Assembly: GCA_032260385.1 (NCBI GenBank)
Contig: JAVVEL010000008.1
Location: forward strand, 7,313 to 71,312
From: Bacteroidales bacterium
GTDB taxonomy: Bacteria > Bacteroidota > Bacteroidia > Bacteroidales > VadinHA17
Direction: 5' to 3'
DNA length: 64,000 bases
Part shown: positions 10,207 to 54,446 of the stretch, piece by piece
Position numbering within the stretch: position 1 is the first letter of the stretch
Layout of the letters: every line of letters begins with the position of its first letter
The notes under the pieces: generated by a model
The model's input: the letters and a program-made list of their open reading frames with translations, nothing else
Databases searched by the model: none
Told to the model about the DNA's origin: nothing
Position numbers and translations under genes: made by a program

Positions 10207-11232
10207 TCATTGACCTGTCAATTGTGAGTACGTCTTTACCCTTTTTATATAGAAGTTAAAAACCAGGGATTTGTTCAAAATCAGGTCCTGCGGGTATGAA
10301 ATTTTATCTTTAATGCCCTCTTCCCTCTTAAGCTTCAGTTCTTTCTTATGCCTGTAATAGTGGAGATGGGCTTTAATTACATTGACGAAGGCTGTAAAAT
10401 TTAAACTTAGCAAAAAACGCAGTGCGGCTATACCATCCAGGCACATCCTTATGAACAGGATTTTTTTTAGACGGTCCTGGGGCAGGTTTTTATAAAGCAT
10501 GAAGAGGTTATTCCGGAAATTGTAAAATATTTTAGAGGGTGACTTATAAGGAAGTGACCCTCCCCCGAAATGATAAACAGTGGATGAGGGCACACACATG
10601 ATTTTTTTCCCTCCGGCATTCAGGCGCCAGCAAAGGTCAATTTCCTCCATATGTGCAAAAAAATCAGGATCAAAGCCTCCAGCTTCCTTCCAGTCGGATG
10701 ATCTGATGAACAGGCATGCACCGCTGGCCCAGAATACTTGCCTTATGTCGTTATACTGCCCCTCGTCTTTTTCTGTTATATTCAATAGCCTGCCCCTGCA
10801 GAAGGGGTAACCGTATTTGTCAATAAATCCTCCTGCAGCACCGGCATATTCAAACCTGCTGCGATCATTATAGCTTAATATTTTAGGCTGGCATGCTGCA
10901 ACTTCAGGATGGGTGTCCATATATTCAATCACAGGGTTGATCCAGCCCGGGCTTACCTCAACGTCAGAATTGAGCAGGATAAAATATTCTGATTCAAGCC
11001 TGCTGAGGGCTTCATTATAACCCCCCGCAAAGCCGTAATTTTGGCCCAGCTCTATCAGGGTGACACCGGGGTGCTTCTTTCTAATATATTCGCATGAATC
11101 ATCTGTGCTGCCATTATCTGCAACAATTACAGTATAAGCTTCAGATGAAGAGTGTCTTATTGCCCTGTCAAGGAAGAGTTCAAGAAGATTTTTACCATTC
11201 CAGTTAAGGATAACTACTGATGCTTTGTTCAT
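10207..11232 (-). CDS. family 2 glycosyltransferase
   Basis: GT-A N-terminus SVVILNWNG, ADNGSTDDS, a DxD-like LLNSDVEV and a GACLFIRS block. Its start overlaps the stop of the upstream acyltransferase gene in an ATGA. Confidence 0.85.
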   Translation of the reverse strand: MNKASVVILNWNGKNLLELFLDRAIRHSSSEAYTVIVADNGSTDDSCEYIRKKHPGVTLIELGQNYGFAGGYNEALSRLESEYFILLNSDVEVSPGWINPVIEYMDTHPEVAACQPKILSYNDRSRFEYAGAAGGFIDKYGYPFCRGRLLNITEKDEGQYNDIRQVFWASGACLFIRSSDWKEAGGFDPDFFAHMEEIDLCWRLNAGGKKIMCVPSSTVYHFGGGSLPYKSPSKIFYNFRNNLFMLYKNLPQDRLKKILFIRMCLDGIAALRFLLSLNFTAFVNVIKAHLHYYRHKKELKLKREEGIKDKISYPQDLILNKSLVFNFYIKRVKTYSQLTGQ

Positions 11233-41690: not shown

Positions 41691-41834
41691 ATATTAAAAA
41701 AAAGTTAAATATTAATTTTTAATAGGCGATTAGTGTAACAATTAATACCTTTGTTACGTTAAAAGAACAGAAGGTAACACTTGAAAAACAGTAGTTTGTT
41801 TTCTGGGATTTAGGTTTAGGGACATTAGGGAAAA

Positions 41835-41866
41835 ATCAGGGCACACAATAGTCCTGATTTTTTTTT
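41835..41866. terminator. bidirectional intrinsic terminator between trx and xseB
   Basis: Stem ATCAGGGC / GTCCTGAT (8 bp, one G-T) with an 8-nt loop. It is flanked by A5 on the left and T9 on the right, and it abuts the xseB stop codon. Confidence 0.75.
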
Positions 41867-42062
41867 ATTCCATATCATTGATAATTTTACCTATTTCCTC
41901 TTCTGTGTCCCTTAGTTTAGCCTGGCATAGCCGTAATAATTCCGAAGCCCGCTTTACTTTTCCTGACAGTTCGTCAACGTCAAGTTCTCCCGATTCTATT
42001 TGCTCAAGGATATTTTCCAGTTCGGCAACAGCCTTATTAAAGGTAGGTTTGTTTTCAGTCAT
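41865..42062 (-). CDS. xseB: exodeoxyribonuclease VII small subunit
   Basis: 65-aa helical protein with FNKAVAELENILEQIESGELDVDEL...LCQAKL, typical of XseB. Confidence 0.8.
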   Translation of the reverse strand: MTENKPTFNKAVAELENILEQIESGELDVDELSGKVKRASELLRLCQAKLRDTEEEIGKIINDME

Positions 42063-43986
42063 GGGTATTATTGATATGAATAAATATTGTTGTTCCTGAA
42101 TTTTTTTTGCTTTCCAGGCTAAGGAGGCTATGATTCTTTTTTGTCATAAGCTTGACTATCAGCAGCCCAAGCCCCATTTTATGAGTGTCGGTTGTGGTAC
42201 TTTCATTTTTAACCCTGCTTAAATCAAATATTTTATCTTTAAGACTTTCCGGGATGCCGCTTCCGAAATCAGTTACAGAGAGTGTGCATCCTGATTTTGA
42301 TTTTTCAGCCCTTATTATTATGTCTGATCTTGGATGTGAGTGTTCTATACTGTTCTCCGTAAGAATTGTCAGTATTGTTCGCAGGCAAAACCTGTCATAC
42401 TTTATTTCTATCCCGGGGTCAACATCAAACCTTATTCTTATGTCTTTCTTAAGGGCTATACCAAGAAGGGCAGGCAATATTTCGTGTAAAAAGTCATTAA
42501 GGTTAAAGGTGACCTGTTCAATCATATATTTATTTCTCTGGAGCTTTGACCAGAGAAGTATTCTTTCGAGACCTTTTTCTATGCCCGAGGAATCCTTATA
42601 GAGTTGTTCCATCTGTGTTTTAAGCTTCAGGTCTTTACTGTGTGTCCCGAGATATTCACTTATATCTGATAATTTGGCAGTCAGGTTGCTGAAGGGTTTA
42701 CTTAGCTTGAGGGATATAATTGAAAAGAAGTCGCTTTTATTTTCACGAATGCTTAGTATTCTCTCTTTATACCTGGATGATCTTTCATAAGCCTCCTGCA
42801 GCCCGGCTCTTCTTTGTTCCAGCTTAATATTTGTTTTCCTTATGGCATTGAGATTGTATAAGAGATAAGCGAGTACAGCAATAGTTAAAAAGAGGGCGAG
42901 ATTTATTATAAATGAGATAATCTTTTCCAGTTTTATCCTTTTGACTATTAATTCGTTTTGTTGTTGTGACCATTCAATATTTTCTTCAGATGCCTTGATA
43001 CTCAGTCTGATGTTATAATTTGAGACCAGGTTCTGTACTTCCGTTCTTGTATGATAAGAACGATGCTGGCGATACAAGAGACGGTAGGTTAAGGCCTGAC
43101 TTTCATTTCCCTGATTTCTGTATTTTTCAGCCAGGGTAGATATAACATCCAACGGGTCAATAACTTCATAATTGTGTAAGAGCTCAAAATTAATACTGTC
43201 TATATAAGCTGCGCTCAATTCCAGCTCATTATTCTTAAGGTGGTATTTGCAGAGTCTGAGCTTGATCATATTTTTATGTGCCTCTGACCTCATTTTATTG
43301 TTTTCCAGTATCATCGAATCTATCCAGCTCCTGGCGCCTCTTTGACCTGACTCATAGTAATTATCAATCAGGAAGGCCCATGCATCCATTTTTCTTCCAT
43401 ATTCTTCTACGCCACGGTAATATTCCAGTGCTTCCAGAAGGTATTTTCTGCTGTTGTCGTAGTCTTTAAAAGCAAGATATGTTTCACCCAGGGTTGTGAG
43501 CTCGTCTCCTATTCTCCGTTCATCAAGGGCTTCCTTCCTTAAGTCGATTGATGTTTTATAAGCTTCGATGCTTTTTAAGGTATCATTCCTCTTAAAGGCT
43601 ACAAGTCCCAGGTTGTGCAATATTGAGGCCTTATCTTCAAAAAGCTTCAGGCTGTCGAAAAGTGTCAAAGCCTTCAGGTAATTTTCTTCTGCTTCCGGAA
43701 GTAAACCGGATGAAGTATAGAGGTTCCCGTAAATATGCCATGTTTCTGCTATTTTTTCCGCATCATTAAGCTTTTTTGCTATCTCCATTCGCCTGCCTGC
43801 GTATATCAGCCCGCTTCTCAAGGACCTGTATTGTTCATCAAGTGCATATTTCTTCAGTACTTCCATTTTTACTGAATCATGCATTTCGGGCAAAGTTTGG
43901 AGGACTGTATCGGTAATATTGCCCTGGCTTCTGGCGGTCATAGCCAGGAAAATAAAAACGGCAATATGTAATCCACGGCTAAGCAT
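42055..43986 (-). CDS. TPR-repeat membrane histidine-kinase-like protein lacking the canonical phospho-acceptor His
   Basis: Signal or TM segment, TPR-like repeats, one internal TM, a coiled coil, then a DHp-like segment FFSIISLKLSKPF. In the paralog the aligned segment is ISVFAHDLINPF, so His is replaced by Leu here. The HATPase_c motifs are intact (TENSIEHS, DFGSGI, GLGL). Confidence 0.75.
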   Translation of the reverse strand: MLSRGLHIAVFIFLAMTARSQGNITDTVLQTLPEMHDSVKMEVLKKYALDEQYRSLRSGLIYAGRRMEIAKKLNDAEKIAETWHIYGNLYTSSGLLPEAEENYLKALTLFDSLKLFEDKASILHNLGLVAFKRNDTLKSIEAYKTSIDLRKEALDERRIGDELTTLGETYLAFKDYDNSRKYLLEALEYYRGVEEYGRKMDAWAFLIDNYYESGQRGARSWIDSMILENNKMRSEAHKNMIKLRLCKYHLKNNELELSAAYIDSINFELLHNYEVIDPLDVISTLAEKYRNQGNESQALTYRLLYRQHRSYHTRTEVQNLVSNYNIRLSIKASEENIEWSQQQNELIVKRIKLEKIISFIINLALFLTIAVLAYLLYNLNAIRKTNIKLEQRRAGLQEAYERSSRYKERILSIRENKSDFFSIISLKLSKPFSNLTAKLSDISEYLGTHSKDLKLKTQMEQLYKDSSGIEKGLERILLWSKLQRNKYMIEQVTFNLNDFLHEILPALLGIALKKDIRIRFDVDPGIEIKYDRFCLRTILTILTENSIEHSHPRSDIIIRAEKSKSGCTLSVTDFGSGIPESLKDKIFDLSRVKNESTTTDTHKMGLGLLIVKLMTKKNHSLLSLESKKNSGTTIFIHINNTHD

Positions 43987-45913
43987 CAGCTTTCATTATT
44001 TTGAGGATTACGCCTGTACCCTGTTCGCTCCTGTTATCTATTTCCAGTTCGCCTTTGTTCATCCTAAGCAGGTCTATGCATATTGCCAGTCCCAGTCCAC
44101 TGCCTTTTTCACTACCTGTTCCTGGCTTTGACATAAGGTAATTACCCTTTAAAATATTTCTTCTTACTTCATTATCCATCCCTACACCATCATCTTCCAC
44201 CGATATATAGATAAGATTATCCTCCTCATAAACGTTGATTCGGACCTCCTCACCGGTATGGCTGTATTTAATGGCATTATTCAGGACATTTCGCATGACG
44301 GTTTTCAGTACATCGGGATTTATTCTGGCAGTAAGATCCTTGTCGCAGTTTGCAGTGATATTGATTTTCTTCCTTTCTGCCAGGGGTCTATAGAGTGCGA
44401 GCACATCATGAATCACAGGGATCACATTGATCTCAGACATCTCAAGTTTATCTTTTCCGGCCTGTATGGTGGCGATGCTCTGCAGATTTATCAGTAGCTG
44501 GTTTAGTTGAAATGATGTTTCACTGAGCATATTGCTGTATTCAATCATACTTTCCTTGTCGAGTGCTTCAAAGTCATCAACCATTAATTTACTGAAGCCA
44601 AGTATAGCCTGGAAAGGATTTATGAGATCATGGGCAAAGACTGATATGAGAGTGTCAAGCAATTTATTTTCTTTCTCAAGTTCTTTATTGGTTTTTTGCA
44701 GTTCCCTGTTTACTGCAGCAAACTTCTCCGTTTCGATGCTGAGTTCCTCCTTGGATCTATTCCTTAATTTTCTTATCCGTAGCAGTATAACAAAAAGTAT
44801 AACAAAGGCAAAAAGTATTATCAGTGAGGTTATCATAAGTTTATGCGCCACATTCTGCCTGGTAAGGTTAAGTTCCATTTCGCGGTTAATACTTGCCTGG
44901 AGTCTTTCGTTTCTCGTTTCTTCATACTCAATCATTAACAGGCTTATAATTTCTTCCCTGTCAACTATATTATCATCAGCATGAATTTCAGACAGTATAC
45001 TATCATATTTCCAGGCTTTGTCGTAATCACCTGTGGATGTATAAGCTCTGCAGAGGTATTCGAGGTGGTCATACTGGTCGGGCAGCCTGTATCTATCGTC
45101 AATATTAAATTGTTTGGAGGTACTTATTACCTTTTCATACTCACCCTCAATGAGGTGAAACTCCATTACTGATGTATAAAATACCAGTTGGTCCACATCG
45201 TTATGCCTGTTCTCATCCAGTGCCAGGTAGCCCCTGTTGATCCAGCTTTCAGCCTGATCACGCTCACCAAGCTTATTGTAAGCGCTGATAATTAATCCAA
45301 TGACAGAAACCGGGGATATATTATTTAAAGTAATACTTTCCTTTTTGAGTAATTTTTCCAGTATATCAATTGCTTCATGGTAATTAGCGAGTTCCACTTC
45401 CACTTCAGCGAGATTATAGCTGAAAATATCGTAATAATTCATACCCTTTTTTTCATTGATATCAATGGCACGCAAGAGGTATTTTTTTGATGACTGGTAA
45501 TCGCCAACCAGGGCAAATATTATGGCTATATTATTAAGAAGCACGTTAACACCCTGGTAGTATTCCTGTTCCGAATAAATTGCCAGAGCTGTAAGGAAAT
45601 GTTTCAGGGCCTTACTGTTGTCTCCTTTCAAATAGTTGATTACACCTTCCATATTTTCTGACAATCCATCATAGATGGGATAGTTATTGCATGAAAGGCT
45701 CTTCATCTGGCTGGCAATGAGTTCGAGGCTGTTTGCGTCAGCGTTGTTTAGATGCTCCGATGCTTTTACGTACAAGTCCTCTAAGAGCCTGAAATTTAAT
45801 TTTTCGCTCGCATGATATTTGTAACAATAAGGGAAGTATGTATTCTGGCCATATAAGCCTTGAAACAATACAATAACTAGCAGACTTATTAAAAATCTTT
45901 TCCCCTTTCTCAT
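43979..45913 (-). CDS. TPR-repeat membrane sensor histidine kinase
   Basis: Same architecture as the 42055 gene, but with H-box FAHDLINPF, N-box VLNNAIKYS, G1 DDGVGM and G2 GSGLGL. Its start overlaps the xseA stop (ATGA). Confidence 0.8.
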   Translation of the reverse strand: MRKGKRFLISLLVIVLFQGLYGQNTYFPYCYKYHASEKLNFRLLEDLYVKASEHLNNADANSLELIASQMKSLSCNNYPIYDGLSENMEGVINYLKGDNSKALKHFLTALAIYSEQEYYQGVNVLLNNIAIIFALVGDYQSSKKYLLRAIDINEKKGMNYYDIFSYNLAEVEVELANYHEAIDILEKLLKKESITLNNISPVSVIGLIISAYNKLGERDQAESWINRGYLALDENRHNDVDQLVFYTSVMEFHLIEGEYEKVISTSKQFNIDDRYRLPDQYDHLEYLCRAYTSTGDYDKAWKYDSILSEIHADDNIVDREEIISLLMIEYEETRNERLQASINREMELNLTRQNVAHKLMITSLIILFAFVILFVILLRIRKLRNRSKEELSIETEKFAAVNRELQKTNKELEKENKLLDTLISVFAHDLINPFQAILGFSKLMVDDFEALDKESMIEYSNMLSETSFQLNQLLINLQSIATIQAGKDKLEMSEINVIPVIHDVLALYRPLAERKKINITANCDKDLTARINPDVLKTVMRNVLNNAIKYSHTGEEVRINVYEEDNLIYISVEDDGVGMDNEVRRNILKGNYLMSKPGTGSEKGSGLGLAICIDLLRMNKGELEIDNRSEQGTGVILKIMKADA

Positions 45914-47307
45914 TTAGCAGGTTTCTTCAGGTCAAATACTTTACTCTCTATTCTGCCGAGACTTAAAATAGTGCTTATCTCGGAGCCAGGTTTCAATTCA
46001 TTCGACGATCTGACGGCTTTATCGTTATACAGAGTAATGGAATATCCACGTTTCAGTACTCTGGAAGGGCTAAGGTAATCAATTGATCTGGAAAAATTAT
46101 CCAAAATTGCCTGTTTTTGATTTATGTATCTTTTTAAAGCCGGTTTAAACCTGTTCTTAAGATCACCTGTCAGCCTGTATTTATCATGGATATGCTTCAA
46201 TGTAATTTTACTGACATTCGTCTCAATTGTGTTCAGCCTGGCATGCTTACCTGAAAGGTAGGAGCGTATATTGCCTGAGAGCCTTAAGCCTGACCTGTTA
46301 AGCAGGACCCGCTTATTCTGGAGTGATGATCTCACCCCGGGAGACATATTAACACTGATCCTGTTAATAACAGACCTTTTCGTTTTCACCAGTTCACGGC
46401 TGGAATGAATAATCGATTCTCTCAGTTCCAGGAGGTGCTCCTCGGTTTTTAGACTCTGGTTTATTATGAAATCTGCAACGGCAGTAGGCGTTTTAAATGA
46501 CCGGTAAGCTACCAGGTCGGTAACAGAGAGATCTTTTTCGTGTCCGATTCCCGTAAGTACCGGTATGGGCACCTGTGTAATCAGATAGGCAAGCTTGTAA
46601 TTATCAAACCAGCTCAGGTCTGCCTGCGATCCTCCGCCTCTTACTATTACCATAAGGTCATAGTTCTCTATGTCATTGTAAATACTGTTTATAGCTCCGA
46701 TAGTTGATGCTTCGGTTTCTTTGCCCTGCATTATTGCCCTGAAAAGACTGGTTTTGTACACATAGCCATAACTGTTATTTATAAGCTCATCCGTAAAATC
46801 GCCATAGCCGGCTGCCTGTTCTGATGAGATGACGGCTATCCTTACGGGCAGGAGGGGGAAAGGCAGTTCTTTATTAAGGTTTATCACTCCTTCAGATTCC
46901 AGGCGCTTTATTATCTGCCTTCTCCTGAGTTCCATCTCACCTATGGTATATGCAGGATCTATGTCATATATTACGAGGCTTAGGCCATATACTTCATGGT
47001 ATTCTATTTTTACCCTCAGCAGAACTTTAATGCTTTCTGACAGAGCCTGGCCTGTGGCACTCTCAAAGTAGGGCAGGAGGAGCCTTGCTTTCTGTGACCA
47101 GATAATGGCCCGTAGCCTCGACCTGATGTCTTCGTGGCTGTCTTTTTCTATAAGTTCAAGATAACAATGACCTGAATAATTGATTTTCAATTCCGATATT
47201 TCGGCACTCACCCAGTAAAAACCCGGCAAGCTTTCTTCAATTGATTTTTTTATTAGTTTCTGAAGTTCACTTAATGAATACCTGTCATTTTTATCATTCA
47301 TCATCAT
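45910..47307 (-). CDS. xseA: exodeoxyribonuclease VII large subunit
   Basis: N-terminal OB-fold block YWVSAEISELKINYSGHCYLELIEKD, a catalytic core (VIVRGGGSQADL) and a long C-terminal coiled region. Confidence 0.85.
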   Translation of the reverse strand: MMMNDKNDRYSLSELQKLIKKSIEESLPGFYWVSAEISELKINYSGHCYLELIEKDSHEDIRSRLRAIIWSQKARLLLPYFESATGQALSESIKVLLRVKIEYHEVYGLSLVIYDIDPAYTIGEMELRRRQIIKRLESEGVINLNKELPFPLLPVRIAVISSEQAAGYGDFTDELINNSYGYVYKTSLFRAIMQGKETEASTIGAINSIYNDIENYDLMVIVRGGGSQADLSWFDNYKLAYLITQVPIPVLTGIGHEKDLSVTDLVAYRSFKTPTAVADFIINQSLKTEEHLLELRESIIHSSRELVKTKRSVINRISVNMSPGVRSSLQNKRVLLNRSGLRLSGNIRSYLSGKHARLNTIETNVSKITLKHIHDKYRLTGDLKNRFKPALKRYINQKQAILDNFSRSIDYLSPSRVLKRGYSITLYNDKAVRSSNELKPGSEISTILSLGRIESKVFDLKKPAK

Positions 47308-47366: not shown

Positions 47367-48155
47367 CTACCTTATTATACCTGTTATTTCAGGGTCATTT
47401 ATTTTTCCGCCTTCCTTTTCCAGTTTATCCAGGTATTCAGTTTCTTCCCTTATCAGTTCTGCCCTGTTTTCGGGAATCCCCATGTTATATTTTATTTCCT
47501 TTCGCACTGTTCCGTCCCGGTTGAAAAAAAGCCAGGGGCCCGTCCTTATATCTTTCCTGTACAGGCCTGTAATTTCCTTACTCCCGTTTGGATGCCATGT
47601 CCTGAATTCCCCGTTCAGTTTCCCATCCTGGTATGAAGCTTCAAGCGATGGTGTTCCGTCGGTGTAGTACTGTTTCCAGCTACCTGACTTTATGCCGTCC
47701 TTATATTCCAGTTTTTCAGCAATCTCACCATTCCAGTGGTATTTTACGCATATCCCTTCTGCCCGGTCGTCTTCATAGAGGCATTTCATAAGTAAATGAT
47801 CTTCAATATAATCGGAATAATAGAACCACTCACCTGTTTTTTTACGGTCAACATATTTACCCTTCCCGGCAATAAAACCATTTGGATGATAAAAGTGTGC
47901 ATAGGCAGTATCCCCGGTATAATTGAGTACTGAAGTCAGCTTTCCGTCCTCATCATATCTTTTAAATTCACCTTCAGGCCTGTCATCTGTAAAATAAGCC
48001 TCGTACATAATCTGCCCGTCAGGGTATTTTTTTATCCAGTGACCCTGTTTCATGCCGTTTTCATCGGTTCGGTTAAGTATTTCCTGCGGACTTAAAACTG
48101 AGAATGGTGTAAGTATAAGAATAAGGAACAGTATGGTCTTTGAAAAGCACATCAT
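47367..48155 (-). CDS. MORN-variant repeat protein (YwqK family)
   Basis: Repeated G-x-W-x-x-Y-Y-x-x-G units (GHWIKKYPDGQ, GEWFYYSDY, GSWKQYYTDGT, GEFRTWHPNGS, GPWLFFNRDGT) after a signal peptide. The start is set at 48155, because the track start lies inside the dnaK terminator hairpin. Confidence 0.7.
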   Translation of the reverse strand: MMCFSKTILFLILILTPFSVLSPQEILNRTDENGMKQGHWIKKYPDGQIMYEAYFTDDRPEGEFKRYDEDGKLTSVLNYTGDTAYAHFYHPNGFIAGKGKYVDRKKTGEWFYYSDYIEDHLLMKCLYEDDRAEGICVKYHWNGEIAEKLEYKDGIKSGSWKQYYTDGTPSLEASYQDGKLNGEFRTWHPNGSKEITGLYRKDIRTGPWLFFNRDGTVRKEIKYNMGIPENRAELIREETEYLDKLEKEGGKINDPEITGIIR

Positions 48156-48183
48156 GGTTTTTCTGTTATTAATGATGTAAAAA

Positions 48184-48213
48184 TAAAAAAACACTCTGAA
48201 AATTTCAGAGTGT
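48184..48213 (-). terminator. rho-independent terminator of dnaK
   Basis: On the minus strand there is a perfect 10-bp stem ACACTCTGAA / TTCAGAGTGT with a 3-nt loop, followed by seven T. It begins about 27 nt after the dnaK stop. Confidence 0.85.
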
Positions 48214-48239
48214 CTTTCAATTATATATTGAGACTTTGA

Positions 48240-52158: not shown

Positions 52159-53754
52159 ATGAAGAGGTGGAAGTTCATAGGGCTTATATCTTTGATGCTG
52201 GTTTCATTAACAGGCATTATCTGGGTGCAGATAGTCTGGATAAATAATGCCGTAAGAGTGCGCAATGACCTGTTTAACCGATCTGTATTCAACAGCCTGC
52301 AGAGCACTGCAAGAAAAATAGAGTCATCAAGGCAACTGGCTTTCTACAGGCAAATGATGGTAGCCGATTCTTTATTACAGTCACAGGCTGATGAGATGCA
52401 GACAGTTCCCTTTGCCGGGAATGGGAAAGCGCCGGTGCAGGGATATGGAGGACTGAGCGGCGTAGGGGAGAGCTTTTCCTTCCAGCTGACAGATGATGGC
52501 AATAATGTGCAGGTGCTGGGAGATTACCAGCAGTACTTCATTACCGACAGCAATGAGAAGATAATCCCGAAGGCCAATATCGAAGTAAATGACCCGGGCC
52601 CTCTGAATATTAATAATGACAGGTTCAGATCATGGCTTATGAAAAAATCCAGCGACCTTCGCCGGATGGGCGACAAAATGATTTCTGAGCTGTATGAATG
52701 GGAACTTAACAGTCCGGCCGACAGAGACGAAATATTATCAGTTCTCTACAGTGAGCTCGCAAACTCCGGAATTACATTACCTTTTGAATTTGCTGTTATT
52801 GAGGATAACAGGGTAATTGGCGGGATGTATGAGAAAGTTAGCCCGGCCGACCTTTTAAGCAGCAATTATACAGTTAACCTGTTTAATGACAGGTTGATAC
52901 GTCGAAATACGAGACTTTCCGTAGTCTTCCCTGAACGCAGGAACTATATCCTCTCTTCGATGTCCTTACTGCTTGGTGGCTCTCTCCTTTTCAGCATGAT
53001 AATACTCATTACCTTTGCCCTGAGCATATTCTTTATCATAAGGCAAAAGAGAATATCTGAAATGAAATCGGACTTTATAAATAATATGACCCATGAGTTT
53101 AAAACACCCATTGCAACCATTTCACTTGCTGCTGATACAATAAGTAACACTAAAATCATAAATGACGAAAGCAGGGTAAAGCACTTTATAGGCATGATAA
53201 AGAAGGAAAATGCAAGAATGAACAAGCAGGTTGAGAATATACTCCAGATTTCATCTCTTGACAGGAAAGAAATGGAATTCAGTTTTTCCAGTGTGGATAT
53301 GCATTCAGTGATAGAGAGATCGATAGAAACCATTGAAATACAGGTGGAAGGACGAAACGGGAATATCTTTTTCTACCCCGAGGCCGGCGACCCTCTTGTC
53401 TATGGTGACAGGGAACACCTTACTAACCTGGTGCATAACCTTCTTGATAACGCAAATAAGTACAGTGTGAGCGAACCCGAGATAACACTGAGCACTCTTA
53501 ATAAGAATGGTAATTTTGTATTATCTGTATCTGACAAAGGGATAGGAATGTCCAAAACCGTTCAATCAAAGATATTCGACAGGTTTTACCGGCAGTCCGG
53601 TGGTAATATCCATAATGTTAAGGGTTTCGGGCTTGGCTTGAGTTATGTTAAAGCTATAGTCGACGCGCATAATGGTGATATTAATGTATTCAGTGAAGCA
53701 GGCAAGGGCACAACATTTGAAATATCCATACCACAAAACGAAGACATCCTATGA
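52159..53754 (+). CDS. two-component sensor histidine kinase
   Basis: Two TM segments bracket a roughly 250-aa periplasmic region. H-box MTHEFKTPI, N-box LLDNANKYS, G1 DKGIGM, G2 GFGLGL. Confidence 0.85.
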   Translation: MKRWKFIGLISLMLVSLTGIIWVQIVWINNAVRVRNDLFNRSVFNSLQSTARKIESSRQLAFYRQMMVADSLLQSQADEMQTVPFAGNGKAPVQGYGGLSGVGESFSFQLTDDGNNVQVLGDYQQYFITDSNEKIIPKANIEVNDPGPLNINNDRFRSWLMKKSSDLRRMGDKMISELYEWELNSPADRDEILSVLYSELANSGITLPFEFAVIEDNRVIGGMYEKVSPADLLSSNYTVNLFNDRLIRRNTRLSVVFPERRNYILSSMSLLLGGSLLFSMIILITFALSIFFIIRQKRISEMKSDFINNMTHEFKTPIATISLAADTISNTKIINDESRVKHFIGMIKKENARMNKQVENILQISSLDRKEMEFSFSSVDMHSVIERSIETIEIQVEGRNGNIFFYPEAGDPLVYGDREHLTNLVHNLLDNANKYSVSEPEITLSTLNKNGNFVLSVSDKGIGMSKTVQSKIFDRFYRQSGGNIHNVKGFGLGLSYVKAIVDAHNGDINVFSEAGKGTTFEISIPQNEDIL

Positions 53755-54446
53755 GTGATATATCAAAAATACTTCTTGTAGAAGATGATCTCAGCTTTGG
53801 TTCGGTTCTAAAATCATATCTTGAAATCAATGATTTTACTGTTGAATGGGTTGATGATGGCAAAAATGCCATCCCTGCTTTCAGGAAGGGACAATTCAAC
53901 CTGTGTATACTGGATGTTATGCTGCCCAATGTAGATGGCTTCACCATAGCTTCGGAAATAAGGGCTATCAACAGGACAATACCCTTGATTTTTCTGACAG
54001 CGAAGAAACTGAAAGATGATGTTCTGCACGGTTACGGTCTCGGTGCGGATGACTATATTACCAAGCCTTTCGACACTGATATACTCCTGGCCAAGATAAA
54101 AGCCATTACAAGTCGCAGGGAAGGGATGAAAAGAATCAGTGACGATATTAAAATAGGCAAATATACCTTCAACACAAAAATCAGGTCACTTAAGTCAGGG
54201 CAGGAGGAAAGAAAGCTCTCTCCCAAGGAAGCCCAGCTCCTTGAACTTCTTGCACAGTCGCCCAATAGCCTGGTTAGCCGGGAGACTGCATTAAAAACCA
54301 TATGGGGGTCCGATGATTATTTTACTGCAAGGAGCATGGATGTTTATGTTACGAAGCTGAGAAAATACCTGTCGGGCGACAGCAATATTTCAATAAAAAA
54401 CATTCATGGTGCGGGCTTCCAGATGCTTATTGACAGTGATGATTAA
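53751..54446 (+). CDS. OmpR-family response regulator
   Basis: Receiver domain (LLVEDD, LDVMLP phospho-Asp context, LTAK) and a winged-helix output domain (LSPKEAQLLELL, VYVTKLRKYL). There is a 4-nt overlap with the kinase gene. Confidence 0.9.
   Translation: MSDISKILLVEDDLSFGSVLKSYLEINDFTVEWVDDGKNAIPAFRKGQFNLCILDVMLPNVDGFTIASEIRAINRTIPLIFLTAKKLKDDVLHGYGLGADDYITKPFDTDILLAKIKAITSRREGMKRISDDIKIGKYTFNTKIRSLKSGQEERKLSPKEAQLLELLAQSPNSLVSRETALKTIWGSDDYFTARSMDVYVTKLRKYLSGDSNISIKNIHGAGFQMLIDSDD

What the first reader, a model, noticed from the sequence alone, without database searches (positions are those of the whole stretch)
41865..47307. ExoVII subunit genes split by two TPR histidine-kinase genes in one translationally coupled operon
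The genes xseA, TPR-HK, TPR-HK paralog and xseB lie head-to-tail on the minus strand. Their stop and start codons overlap: ATGA at 45910-45913, 8 nt at 43979-43986 and 8 nt at 42055-42062. A bidirectional terminator appears only after xseB. As far as I know, xseA and xseB are usually adjacent or unlinked. Signalling proteins embedded between them, with no response regulator nearby, is not an arrangement I know. It suggests either co-regulation of a DNA-repair nuclease with a sensory module, or a selfish insertion that preserved coupling.
Basis: partly seen in the sequence, partly recalled or inferred. Interest (0 to 1): 0.6.

Follow-up and report, generated by a model that had tools for sequence, protein, structure and literature searches.

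The report
Sensor kinases embedded in ExoVII operon
In a group of uncultured Bacteroidales, two membrane sensor-kinase genes, one of them permanently kinase-dead, have sat for a very long time between the two genes of the DNA-repair nuclease ExoVII and are read with them as one tightly packed unit; the layout is unusual and undescribed, and nothing yet shows that it changes how the nuclease works.

Summary
xseA, two TPR sensor-kinase genes and xseB lie head-to-tail on the minus strand. The overlaps are ATGA, ATGCTTAG and ATGACTGA, and a single hairpin terminator follows xseB.

This is not a recent or selfish insertion. Every relative of either kinase whose context I could read sits between xseA and xseB. 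The loci that carry the pair form one clade (100/100 bootstrap), the overlaps persist across it, and all four genes have dN/dS of 0.05-0.16.

HK1 is a complete kinase. HK2 lacks the phospho-acceptor His in all 17 orthologues but keeps its ATP-binding motifs, so it is a conserved pseudokinase.

A sister group of 62 species has xseA and xseB adjacent. More distant lineages carry related TPR sensors at the same spot: a single kinase, a 740+950 aa pair, or TPR-PP2C with REC-Hpt and a kinase. The association is therefore old or recurrent, with at least 6 gains or losses.

The most likely mechanism is a co-transcribed, translationally coupled operon. An orphan kinase/pseudokinase receptor shares the expression of ExoVII, and a biochemical link is unproven.

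In passing, I found an ultra-conserved candidate small RNA with an ECF-type promoter that shares the terminator.

The parts
45910..47307 (-). xseA, ExoVII large subunit (465 aa), first of the four tightly linked genes
   Evidence: TIGR00237 scores 305.7 bits (cut-off 180). Pfam finds tRNA_anti_2 and Exonuc_VII_L. The RGGGS and GHxxD motifs are invariant in alignments A1 and A2.
43979..45913 (-). HK1: sensor histidine kinase. Its parts are an N-terminal signal/anchor helix, an extracytoplasmic TPR-like helical repeat domain of about 300 aa, one transmembrane (TM) helix (359-377), DHp with an intact H-box, and a CA domain.
   Evidence: Pfam finds TPR_12 and HATPase_c. The H-box SVFAHDLINPFQAI is invariant in 16 orthologues, and the N, G1 and G2 boxes are present. 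It aligns to HK853. The AlphaFold model has mean pLDDT 75: 14 helices across residues 36-312, a long TM-spanning helix, and DHp plus CA matching HK853 with target-normalised TM-score 0.74.
42055..43986 (-). HK2: same architecture as HK1 but without the phospho-acceptor histidine. It is a conserved pseudokinase that keeps its ATP-binding motifs.
   Evidence: Leu aligns with His260 of HK853. The position is L, I, D, N or G in all 17 orthologues, with no acidic residue following. The N-box Asn, G1 (DxGxG) and xGLGL are retained. HATPase_c scores 56.5 bits and there is no HisKA hit. dN/dS is 0.10-0.16.
41865..42062 (-). xseB, ExoVII small subunit (65 aa), last gene of the unit
   Evidence: TIGR01280 scores 55 bits (cut-off 35) and Pfam finds Exonuc_VII_S. 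dN/dS is 0.05-0.11.
45910..45913 (-). xseA stop / HK1 start overlap (ATGA)
   Evidence: Read directly from the sequence. The overlap is -4 nt in the shallow part of the clade. In its deep branches there is a gap of +30 to +38 nt instead.
43979..43986 (-). HK1 stop / HK2 start overlap (ATGCTTAG)
   Evidence: Read directly from the sequence. An 8-nt overlap is found in 20 of 24 loci, and all 24 overlap.
42055..42062 (-). HK2 stop / xseB start overlap (ATGACTGA)
   Evidence: Read directly from the sequence. There is an overlap of 8-26 nt in 21 of 24 loci.
41831..41864 (.). Hairpin terminator directly after the xseB stop, flanked by an A-run and a T-run. It is shared with a convergent candidate sRNA gene.
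   Evidence: Energy -12.5 kcal/mol, z = -3.3. A hairpin is present at this place in all 17 clade members examined. In the sister group the stem sequences are entirely different but still pair. The T-run is longer on the + strand (T7-T10) than on the xseB strand (T4-T5).
47367..48155 (-). MORN-repeat protein gene, 59 nt upstream of xseA. It is possibly the first gene of the same transcription unit.
   Evidence: Pfam MORN_2. A strong dnaK terminator at 48186-48218 lies just upstream. No promoter-like motif is found in the 59-nt spacer. In relatives the upstream gene overlaps xseA. Inference only.

Best explanation
This is an old, vertically inherited operon layout. Genes for inner-membrane sensor kinases with an extracytoplasmic TPR domain are embedded between the two subunit genes of an otherwise ordinary exonuclease VII.

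In the window's clade the module has two parts. HK1 is a complete kinase/phosphatase. HK2 is a conserved partner that cannot be phosphorylated on the canonical histidine but keeps its ATP-binding motifs.

Proposed mechanism, with the status of each step:
1. One transcript starts upstream of xseA, possibly at the MORN gene, and ends at the hairpin after xseB. This is inferred from the anatomy.
2. Ribosomes finishing one gene re-initiate at the overlapping start of the next. This fixes the HK1:HK2 ratio and makes xseB translation depend on read-through of the kinase genes. This is inferred. It is plausible because Bacteroidota make little use of Shine-Dalgarno sequences, which is my own knowledge.
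3. HK1 and HK2 act together as one receptor, with HK2 modulating or trans-activating HK1. They signal to a receiver protein encoded elsewhere. This is inferred from strict co-occurrence, the conserved 8-nt coupling and the precedent of kinase/pseudokinase pairs.
4. The tie to ExoVII is one of shared expression, not shared biochemistry. Once the kinase genes lacked their own promoter and xseB depended on read-through, the layout was hard to undo ('lock-in'). It was nevertheless lost or gained several times in related lineages.
For: **Anatomy.** The overlaps and the single terminator are confirmed.

**Strict association.**
- The HK1 family has only 49 clusters and the HK2 family only 37, in a database of 5.8 billion clusters. 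After these, scores drop sharply.
- An exhaustive search with the HK1 sensor domain found only 6 representatives that match the whole domain.
- All seven context look-ups and 18 genome loci show xseA-HK1-HK2-xseB.

**Age and vertical descent.**
- A neighbour-joining (NJ) tree of DnaK+CCA+XseA (1560 columns, 53 taxa) puts all HK-bearing loci in one split with 100/100 bootstrap.
- Divergence inside that group (up to 0.46) is as deep as its distance to the sister group.

**Constraint.**
- dN/dS is 0.05-0.16 for all four genes.
- The junction overlaps are retained.
- The HK1 H-box is invariant, and the His is absent from HK2 in every orthologue.

**No evidence of separate expression or mobility.**
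- There is no conserved TAnnTTTG motif upstream of HK1, HK2 or xseB.
- There are no flanking repeats or mobility genes.

**Stoichiometry.** ExoVII is XseA4.XseB24 (PMC10835039). xseB output therefore matters, which gives selection a reason to keep coupling after the insertion.

**Tolerance of the slot.** Other contents occur between xseA and xseB: four opposite-strand genes in L099, and gaps of 384-834 nt in L153, L159 and L174. This argues that the nuclease does not need a particular neighbour.
Against: - No transcript data exist, so internal promoters cannot be excluded. The promoter test used one consensus only, and it did not find a promoter upstream of xseA either.
- Related TPR sensors occupy the same slot in several distant lineages. 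That persistence is more than simple lock-in would predict and could mean a functional link.
- In some of those lineages the genes are not overlapping. L098 has gaps of about 144 nt on both sides of its kinase, so coupling is not universal.
- An HK1-HK2 interaction is untested. The two are each more similar to other xse-embedded kinases (109-178 bits) than to one another (52 bits), so they are not a simple recent duplicate pair.
- No cognate receiver was identified.
Confidence: 0.5

Rival explanations
1. Functional unit. The TPR sensors and ExoVII work together. An extracytoplasmic signal, for example an envelope-damaging or genotoxic compound, is sensed by the kinases. This is linked to production or activity of the nuclease, with xseB (needed at 6 copies per XseA) gated through the kinase genes.
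For: - Related TPR sensor genes sit directly after xseA in at least five architectures across distant lineages:
  - a single kinase of about 643-851 aa (L093, L096, L098);
  - A+B pairs of about 740 and 950 aa (L089, L145, L149, L176);
  - TPR-PP2C with REC-Hpt and a kinase (L095, L111);
  - a sensor-less kinase core (L123);
  - the 644/643 aa pair of the window.
- For each embedded kinase, the top BLASTP hits within the 21 sequences compared are other embedded kinases.
- Overlaps are conserved.
- The abstract of PMC12004951 reports that a Vibrio cholerae ExoVII mutant fails to grow on bile-salt medium. Envelope-active compounds and ExoVII are therefore linked in at least one organism.
Against: - The sensor domains face the periplasm and ExoVII is cytoplasmic. 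The cytoplasmic parts of the kinases are only DHp and CA.
- 62 sister species and most other Bacteroidota sampled (46 of the metagenome loci) do without any sensor here.
- The slot also accepts unrelated genes (L099).
- XseA and XseB show no clade-specific change that I noticed.
- Nothing in the papers library links the two.
Confidence: 0.2
2. Positional accident with independent expression. The kinases and xseB each have their own promoters inside upstream coding sequence, and the overlaps are only a by-product of genome compaction.
For: - Gaps rather than overlaps occur at xseA/HK1 in the deep branches (+30 to +38 nt) and around the single kinase of L098 (about 144 nt).
- In L099, xseB is separated from xseA by opposite-strand genes and must have its own promoter.
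- Short overlaps are common in compact bacterial genomes (my own knowledge).
Against: - HK1/HK2 overlap in 24 of 24 loci and HK2/xseB in 21 of 24, across lineages whose synonymous sites are saturated.
- There is no conserved TAnnTTTG motif at any internal position.
- There is no terminator-like hairpin on the coding strand between the genes.
Confidence: 0.15
3. History rival. TPR-kinase genes entered the xseA-xseB gap several times independently, making it a hot spot, rather than once with later diversification and losses.
For: - On the xseA tree the sensor-bearing loci fall into at least 4 blocks interleaved with adjacent-gene blocks. Fitch parsimony needs 6-9 state changes.
- TPR kinases are abundant in Bacteroidota, and the margins separating embedded from non-embedded kinases are small for HK1 and HK2 (137 versus 138-178 bits).
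- The slot accepts other genes too.
Against: - The embedded kinases rank each other first.
- A-type and B-type orthologues recur as pairs in several lineages.
- The upstream synteny (dnaK, MORN, S8 peptidase, xseA) is shared by L093 and L176, and the S8 peptidase-xseA part also by L095.
- A single-gene neighbour-joining tree at this depth overestimates the number of changes.
Confidence: 0.25
4. Selfish or mobile insertion that preserved coupling.
For: - The state is derived relative to the sister group with adjacent xseA-xseB.
- The kinase genes have slightly lower G+C (0.36-0.43) than dnaK and xseA (0.41-0.47).
Against: - No transposase, integrase or toxin-like gene is present, and no flanking direct or inverted repeats.
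- The position is strictly single-copy and fixed.
- Inheritance is vertical with 100/100 monophyly.
- dN/dS is about 0.1.
Confidence: 0.03

Closest known systems
FimS of Porphyromonas gingivalis (TPR sensor histidine kinase of the FimS-FimR system)
   Same: - The architecture is the same: an N-terminal membrane helix, a periplasmic domain of about 350 aa made of TPR motifs, a second membrane helix, and a C-terminal histidine-kinase core (PMC11053733).
- FimS is the best NCBIfam hit of HK1.
- The signal is unknown in both.
   Different: - The score is far below the family cut-off (131 versus 600 bits) and the match covers only the kinase core.
- There is no adjacent FimR-like regulator.
- There are two genes, one without the phospho-acceptor His.
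- The genes are embedded in the xseA-xseB operon.
Kinase/pseudokinase and kinase-kinase signalling pairs: DivL (Caulobacter; the His is replaced) and RetS-GacS (Pseudomonas)
   Same: - HK2, like DivL, keeps the DHp-CA fold and ATP-binding motifs but lacks the phospho-acceptor His. DivL and RetS are among the PDB matches.
- The idea that one HK-like protein modulates another through DHp contacts is established for RetS-GacS (my own knowledge).
   Different: - No interaction between HK1 and HK2 has been tested.
- HK2 carries Leu rather than Tyr at the site.
- Both proteins have their own periplasmic TPR sensor.
- The two genes are translationally coupled.
Ordinary xseA-xseB arrangements: adjacent genes in the sister Bacteroidales group and, from my own knowledge, in Firmicutes; unlinked genes in E. 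coli
   Same: The enzyme is the same. The family scores, OB fold, and the RGGGS and GHxxD motifs are as expected. The XseA4.XseB24 stoichiometry is known from E. coli (PMC10835039).
   Different: Here 3.9 kb of signalling genes separate the two subunit genes while stop/start overlaps keep them in one unit. In 62 sister species with the same flanking genes the gap is only about 20-170 nt.
Other xse-embedded TPR sensor modules found here (L089, L093, L095, L096, L098, L108, L111, L113, L123, L145, L149, L176)
   Same: - They occupy the same slot directly after xseA.
- The TPR-TM-kinase architecture is the same, with the same H-box type (SIIAHDL[KR]NPF).
- L093 and L176 share the upstream synteny dnaK, MORN, S8 peptidase; L095 shares the S8 peptidase-xseA part.
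   Different: - Their sizes are 640-975 aa and all keep the His.
- Some are single genes. Some carry a receiver in the cluster: a 160-aa REC with a C-terminal membrane helix after xseB in L093, and REC-Hpt plus TPR-PP2C in L095.
- They are only 22-28% identical to HK1 and HK2.
- Overlaps are not always present.

Membership tests
Exonuclease VII large subunit (XseA, TIGR00237 / PF02601 + PF13742) | Whole-protein score above the curated cut-off; N-terminal OB fold plus catalytic domain | tested here: met
   305.7 bits against a cut-off of 180. PF13742 covers residues 10-116 and PF02601 covers 143-455.
Exonuclease VII large subunit (XseA, TIGR00237 / PF02601 + PF13742) | Catalytic-domain motifs RGGGS and GHxxD. 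That these are the catalytic motifs is my own knowledge of E. coli XseA. | tested here: met
   R223-G-G-G-S227 and G255-H256-x-x-D259 are invariant in alignment A1. All but S227 are also invariant in the wider alignment A2.
Exonuclease VII small subunit (XseB, TIGR01280 / PF02609) | Whole-protein score above the curated cut-off | tested here: met
   55 bits against a cut-off of 35; PF02609 scores 55.2 against 24.
HisKA-type sensor histidine kinase (HK1) | Phospho-acceptor His in the H-box of the DHp domain | tested here: met
   FAHDLINP aligns with SHELRTP of HK853 and is invariant in 16 orthologues. Pfam HisKA itself is below threshold (16.9 against 26.9 bits).
HisKA-type sensor histidine kinase (HK1) | ATP-binding CA domain with N, G1 and G2 boxes | tested here: met
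   HATPase_c scores 64.9 bits. NNAIK, DDGxGM and GSGLGL are conserved. The model matches HK853 with target-normalised TM-score 0.74.
HisKA-type sensor histidine kinase (HK2) | Phospho-acceptor His in the H-box | tested here: not met
   Leu aligns with His260 of HK853. The position is L, I, D, N or G in all 17 orthologues, and no conserved His lies nearby. HK2 should therefore be filed as a pseudokinase.
HisKA-type sensor histidine kinase (HK2) | ATP-binding CA domain | tested here: met
   HATPase_c scores 56.5 bits. The N-box Asn, DFGxGI and xGLGL are retained, although the first Gly of G2 is lost. ATP binding itself was not tested.
FimS equivalog (NF053520) | Whole-protein score of at least 600 bits | tested here: not met
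   HK1 scores 131 bits and HK2 70 bits. For HK1 the match is restricted to the kinase core.
Classical two-component system (kinase plus adjacent cognate response regulator) | Receiver-domain gene in the same operon or next to it | tested here: not met
   The window has only one receiver-domain protein, at 53751-54446. It is paired with its own kinase, and that pair is also present in relatives without HK1/HK2. phmmer sensitivity is limited. Some variant loci do carry a receiver (L093, L095).
Translationally coupled operon | Same strand, stop/start overlaps or minimal gaps, no internal terminator | tested here: met
Translationally coupled operon | Single transcript; downstream translation depends on upstream translation | not testable with these tools
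   This needs RNA-seq or RT-PCR and reporter fusions.
Mobile or selfish genetic element | Mobility genes, terminal repeats or target duplications, and variable location or patchy distribution | tested here: not met
   No such genes or repeats were found. The location is fixed and the distribution monophyletic.

The most novel reading that the evidence does not exclude
The TPR sensors and ExoVII form one stress-response unit that is conserved, in changing forms, across several Bacteroidia lineages. A periplasmic signal read by the kinase/pseudokinase receptor is tied to nuclease output. Specifically, the supply of XseB, the subunit needed in six-fold excess, is gated by translation through the kinase genes. 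This would link the state of the cell envelope to a DNA-repair nuclease in a way not described before.
Probability: 0.15. Interest if true: 0.7.

Novelty: new variant of a known kind. Interest (0 to 1): 0.45.

Why it matters
All the components are known kinds: ExoVII, FimS-like TPR kinases, and pseudokinase partners. The combination is new. Signalling genes are wedged between the two subunit genes of a multi-subunit enzyme that needs a 1:6 subunit ratio. They are kept there with stop/start overlaps over a long evolutionary span, and related lineages show varied forms of the same thing.

If the link is only one of expression, this is a clean natural example of operon 'lock-in'. It would also show an orphan kinase/pseudokinase receptor produced at a fixed ratio.

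If the link is functional, it would connect extracytoplasmic sensing to a DNA-repair nuclease.

Either way it yields concrete, testable predictions. It also defines a small, sharply bounded kinase family with a conserved His-less member.

Tried and rejected
- **Selfish or mobile insertion: rejected.** There are no repeats or mobility genes, the clade is monophyletic, and selection is purifying.
- **'The adjacent layout is simply ancestral and the insertion happened once in this clade': abandoned.** I held this. I dropped it as the whole story when the nearest non-family relatives of HK1 and HK2 also turned out to lie between xseA and xseB and the metagenome survey showed further variants.
- **HK1 and HK2 as recent tandem duplicates: rejected.** They are 19% identical, and each is closer to other embedded kinases than to the other.
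- **Internal Bacteroidota-type promoters: inconclusive.** No conserved TAnnTTTG was found, but none was found upstream of xseA either. The sigma-70 scan did not exceed its shuffled controls.
- **Cognate regulator: not found.** Only one receiver protein is detectable in the window. Whole genomes could not be scanned.
- **Sensor-domain search for hints about the ligand: uninformative.** It returned only the family itself plus generic TPR proteins.
- **Fold search: nothing new.** It returned only generic kinase cores.
- **Literature: nothing.** No paper links xseA/xseB with a histidine kinase.
- **RNAalifold on the conserved spacer element: no consensus.** The hairpin loops misalign, so the covariation there is judged by eye from alignment A4.
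- **Rfam: no family for that element**.
- **Limits of the trees.** The xseA-only trees are single-gene neighbour-joining trees. The count of 6-9 gains or losses is a rough figure.

Full report
**1.

Four ORFs lie head-to-tail on the minus strand: xseA (45910-47307), HK1 (43979-45913, 644 aa), HK2 (42055-43986, 643 aa) and xseB (41865-42062).
- xseA and xseB pass the curated NCBIfam cut-offs: 305.7 bits against 180, and 55 against 35.
- Both middle proteins have TPR repeats and an HATPase_c domain.
- The junctions read ATGA, ATGCTTAG and ATGACTGA, as claimed.
- Directly after the xseB stop there is a hairpin flanked by an A-run and a T-run (-12.5 kcal/mol, z = -3.3).
- The terminator scan shows nothing comparable on the coding strand inside the four genes.
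- Upstream, 59 nt away, lies a MORN-repeat gene that follows the strong dnaK terminator. Downstream lie a convergent thioredoxin gene and a CCA-adding enzyme gene.

**2. What the two kinases are**

Both proteins share one layout: an N-terminal hydrophobic signal or anchor, about 300 aa of helical repeats, one strong membrane helix near residue 360, and then DHp and CA domains.
- The AlphaFold model of HK1 (mean pLDDT 75) shows 14 helices across residues 36-312, a long helix through the membrane, and a kinase core. That core matches HK853 with target-normalised TM-score 0.74.
- This is the architecture described for FimS of P. gingivalis (PMC11053733). Neither protein reaches the FimS family cut-off (131 and 70 bits against 600).
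- HK1 has a complete H-box, FAHDLINP, which is invariant in 16 orthologues, together with N, G1 and G2 boxes.
- HK2 has Leu where HK853 has His260 and Lys where HK853 has the following Glu. Across 17 orthologues the position is L, I, D, N or G and never His. The N-box Asn, the DxGxG motif and xGLGL persist.
- HK2 is not decaying. Its dN/dS is 0.10-0.16, the same range as HK1 (0.10-0.13) and xseA (0.10-0.14).
- HK1 and HK2 are only 19% identical.

I therefore read HK2 as a conserved pseudokinase partner of HK1.

**3. The arrangement is conserved, not accidental**

- HK1 has only 49 full-length relatives (33-100% identity, all 637-648 aa, all from Bacteroidales metagenome-assembled genomes). After these the scores collapse.
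- HK2 has 37 such relatives, on the same contigs.
- An exhaustive HMMER search of 1.84 billion representatives with the HK1 sensor domain found six that match the whole domain. The rest are generic TPR proteins.
- Every context I could read is xseA-HK1-HK2-xseB, inside the larger block dnaK, MORN, xseA ... xseB, trx, cca. These are five look-ups on HK1-family proteins giving eight loci and 18 of the 80 genome loci retrieved with xseA.
- In 24 loci (duplicates included), HK1/HK2 always overlap, by 8 nt in 20 of them. HK2/xseB overlap in 21.
- xseA/HK1 overlap by 4 nt in the shallow part of the clade and are 30-38 nt apart in the deep branches.
- No Bacteroidota-type -7 motif is conserved in front of HK1, HK2 or xseB.
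- No repeats flank the pair.

**4. Evolutionary setting**

The other 62 genome loci have the same flanking genes, but xseA and xseB are directly adjacent and no HK1 or HK2 homologue lies within 8 kb.
- In a neighbour-joining tree of DnaK+CCA+XseA (1560 columns, 53 taxa), the HK-bearing loci form one split in 100 of 100 bootstraps. The divergence within them (up to 0.46) is as deep as their distance to the sister group.

Taken alone, this would mean a single old insertion. The nearest relatives outside the two families changed that picture.
- P0050 (764 aa) lies in xseA, kinase (764 aa), kinase (974 aa), xseB (L089).
- P0158 (851 aa) is a single kinase between xseA and xseB, followed by a 160-aa receiver protein with a C-terminal membrane helix (L093).
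- P0406 (972 aa) lies in dnaK, a 275-aa gene at the MORN position (no Pfam hit on record), mnmA, S8 peptidase, xseA, kinase (735 aa), kinase (972 aa), xseB (L176).
- In the cultured Salinivirga cyanobacteriivorans, xseA is followed by a TPR-PP2C phosphatase, a REC-Hpt protein, a TPR kinase and a TPR protein. No xseB is detected in that locus (L095).

Of these:
- 8 have a TPR kinase directly after xseA;
- 2 have probable TPR genes that are cut off by the contig end;
- 1 has a TPR-PP2C;
- 1 has a sensor-less kinase core;
- 46 have adjacent xseA-xseB;
- 1 has four opposite-strand genes in between;
- 3 have gaps of 384-834 nt.

Within the 21 kinase sequences compared, every embedded kinase ranks other embedded kinases first. 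The margins are small for HK1 and HK2. Three further TPR kinases that scored well (P0053, P0054, P0440) are not xse-linked.

On an xseA tree of 162 taxa, the sensor-bearing loci fall into at least four blocks, and Fitch parsimony needs 6-9 changes.

So sensor genes in this slot are either old with repeated loss, or repeatedly gained. I favour the first, because of the shared upstream synteny and the recurring A-type/B-type pairs. The trees are too weak to settle it. All embedded kinases except HK2 keep the His, so the pseudokinase is specific to the window's clade.

**5. How it most likely works**

*Shown.*
- The gene order, overlaps and single terminator.
- Their conservation, and purifying selection on all four genes.
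- The intact H-box in HK1 and its absence in HK2.
- The lack of a nearby dedicated receiver.

*Inferred.*
- One transcript runs from upstream of xseA to the hairpin.
- Termination-reinitiation at the overlaps fixes the HK1:HK2 ratio and makes xseB translation depend on passage through the kinase genes.
- HK1 and HK2 act as one receptor that reads a periplasmic ligand or protein through the TPR domains.
- The output goes to a receiver encoded elsewhere. The REC-TM protein of L093 and the REC-Hpt protein of L095 suggest a phosphorelay rather than a DNA-binding partner.

ExoVII needs six XseB per XseA (XseA4.XseB24; PMC10835039). After sensor genes came to lie between the subunit genes, selection to keep xseB expressed would therefore favour tight coupling.

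I put about 0.5 on this 'shared expression, separate biochemistry, locked-in layout' reading and about 0.2 on a true functional unit. The persistence of TPR sensors in this slot across architectures argues for the functional unit. Three things argue against it: the many lineages without any sensor, the acceptance of unrelated genes in the slot, and the periplasmic location of the sensor domains.

**6. Comparison and novelty**

The closest known protein is FimS. It has the same architecture, but HK1 and HK2 fail the family test. The closest concepts are kinase/pseudokinase pairs such as DivL, and kinase-kinase modulation as in RetS-GacS. The ExoVII genes themselves are ordinary.

I found no paper that links xseA/xseB with a histidine kinase. 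I rate the finding as a new variant of known kinds, with moderate interest (0.45). It is a solid, conserved and odd operon architecture with a clear pseudokinase. It has no demonstrated consequence for ExoVII.

**7. Side finding**

The spacer between xseB and trx is far more conserved than the coding sequence around it.
- The 15-mer CCCTAAACCTAAATC (41806-41821, minus strand) occurs exactly once per locus, just after xseB, in 76 loci. It occurs in no other locus fetched.
- Read on the + strand, alignment A4 shows an invariant TGnAAC-N17-CGT motif with fixed spacing (window 41734-41759). This looks like an ECF-sigma promoter.
- About 95 nt follow, containing the invariant GGATTTAGGTTTAGGG.
- Next comes a hairpin whose stem differs completely between lineages yet always pairs, followed by T5-T10.
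- The element persists where trx is missing (L075, L083).
- There is no Rfam match.

I did not follow it further.

Noticed in passing
window 41734-41866 (+ strand); same place in 76 loci, e.g. L026:9588-9753: This is a candidate small-RNA gene of about 100 nt, convergent with xseB. It has an invariant ECF-sigma-like motif TGnAAC-N17-CGT (41734-41759). It also has an invariant block GGATTTAGGTTTAGGG (41806-41821), whose minus-strand form is the once-per-locus 15-mer CCCTAAACCTAAATC. A hairpin with fully covarying stems follows, then a T-run. It is much more conserved than the neighbouring coding sequence. It persists where trx is absent (L075, L083) and has no Rfam match.
   Followed up: partly
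L017:9386-11315: HK1 is split by a single frameshift near position 10237 (tblastn frames 2 then 3) in a long-read, polished MAG. It is either a homopolymer sequencing error or a real loss of HK1 while HK2 stays intact.
   Followed up: no
L011 and L015 (both from MAG JBNJHQ01, isolate Y22_0dBSd3.bin.43): One MAG holds two different copies of the locus, with xseA 79% and 76% identical to the window. This suggests that the bin mixes two related populations.
   Followed up: no
L099:5509-11259; L153, L159, L174: The xseA-xseB gap can hold other content. L099 has four opposite-strand genes, including an M28 peptidase. The other three loci have unexplained gaps of 384-834 nt.
   Followed up: partly
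L095 (Salinivirga cyanobacteriivorans, JBUDPM010000035.1): In this cultured species xseA is followed by a TPR-SpoIIE/PP2C phosphatase, a REC-Hpt protein, a TPR kinase and a TPR protein. No xseB is detectable in the 18.7-kb locus, either by tblastn or by an xseB profile.
   Followed up: partly
L094:8001-10307 (Marinifilum sp., protein P0440): This is a TPR 'kinase' outside any xse locus whose H-box reads IISRDLRDPF, with Arg in place of His. His-less TPR kinases therefore also exist elsewhere in Bacteroidia.
   Followed up: no
L093:10842-11324: This stand-alone receiver domain has a C-terminal hydrophobic helix, making it a membrane-anchored single-domain response regulator. It is encoded 82 nt after xseB in the single-kinase variant.
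   Followed up: no
window 47367-48194 (- strand); sister loci such as L026-L088 and L007: The listed GTG start of the MORN gene (48194) overlaps the dnaK terminator hairpin, so the ATG near 48154 is the likelier start. In many sister loci, and in L007, an S8 peptidase gene with a T9SS sorting tail is inserted between MORN and xseA. It is absent from the window.
   Followed up: no
window 52159-54446 (+ strand): This ordinary HisKA kinase plus OmpR-type regulator pair lies about 6 kb from xseA. It is conserved in relatives both with and without the embedded kinases, so it is not the missing partner by position.
   Followed up: partly
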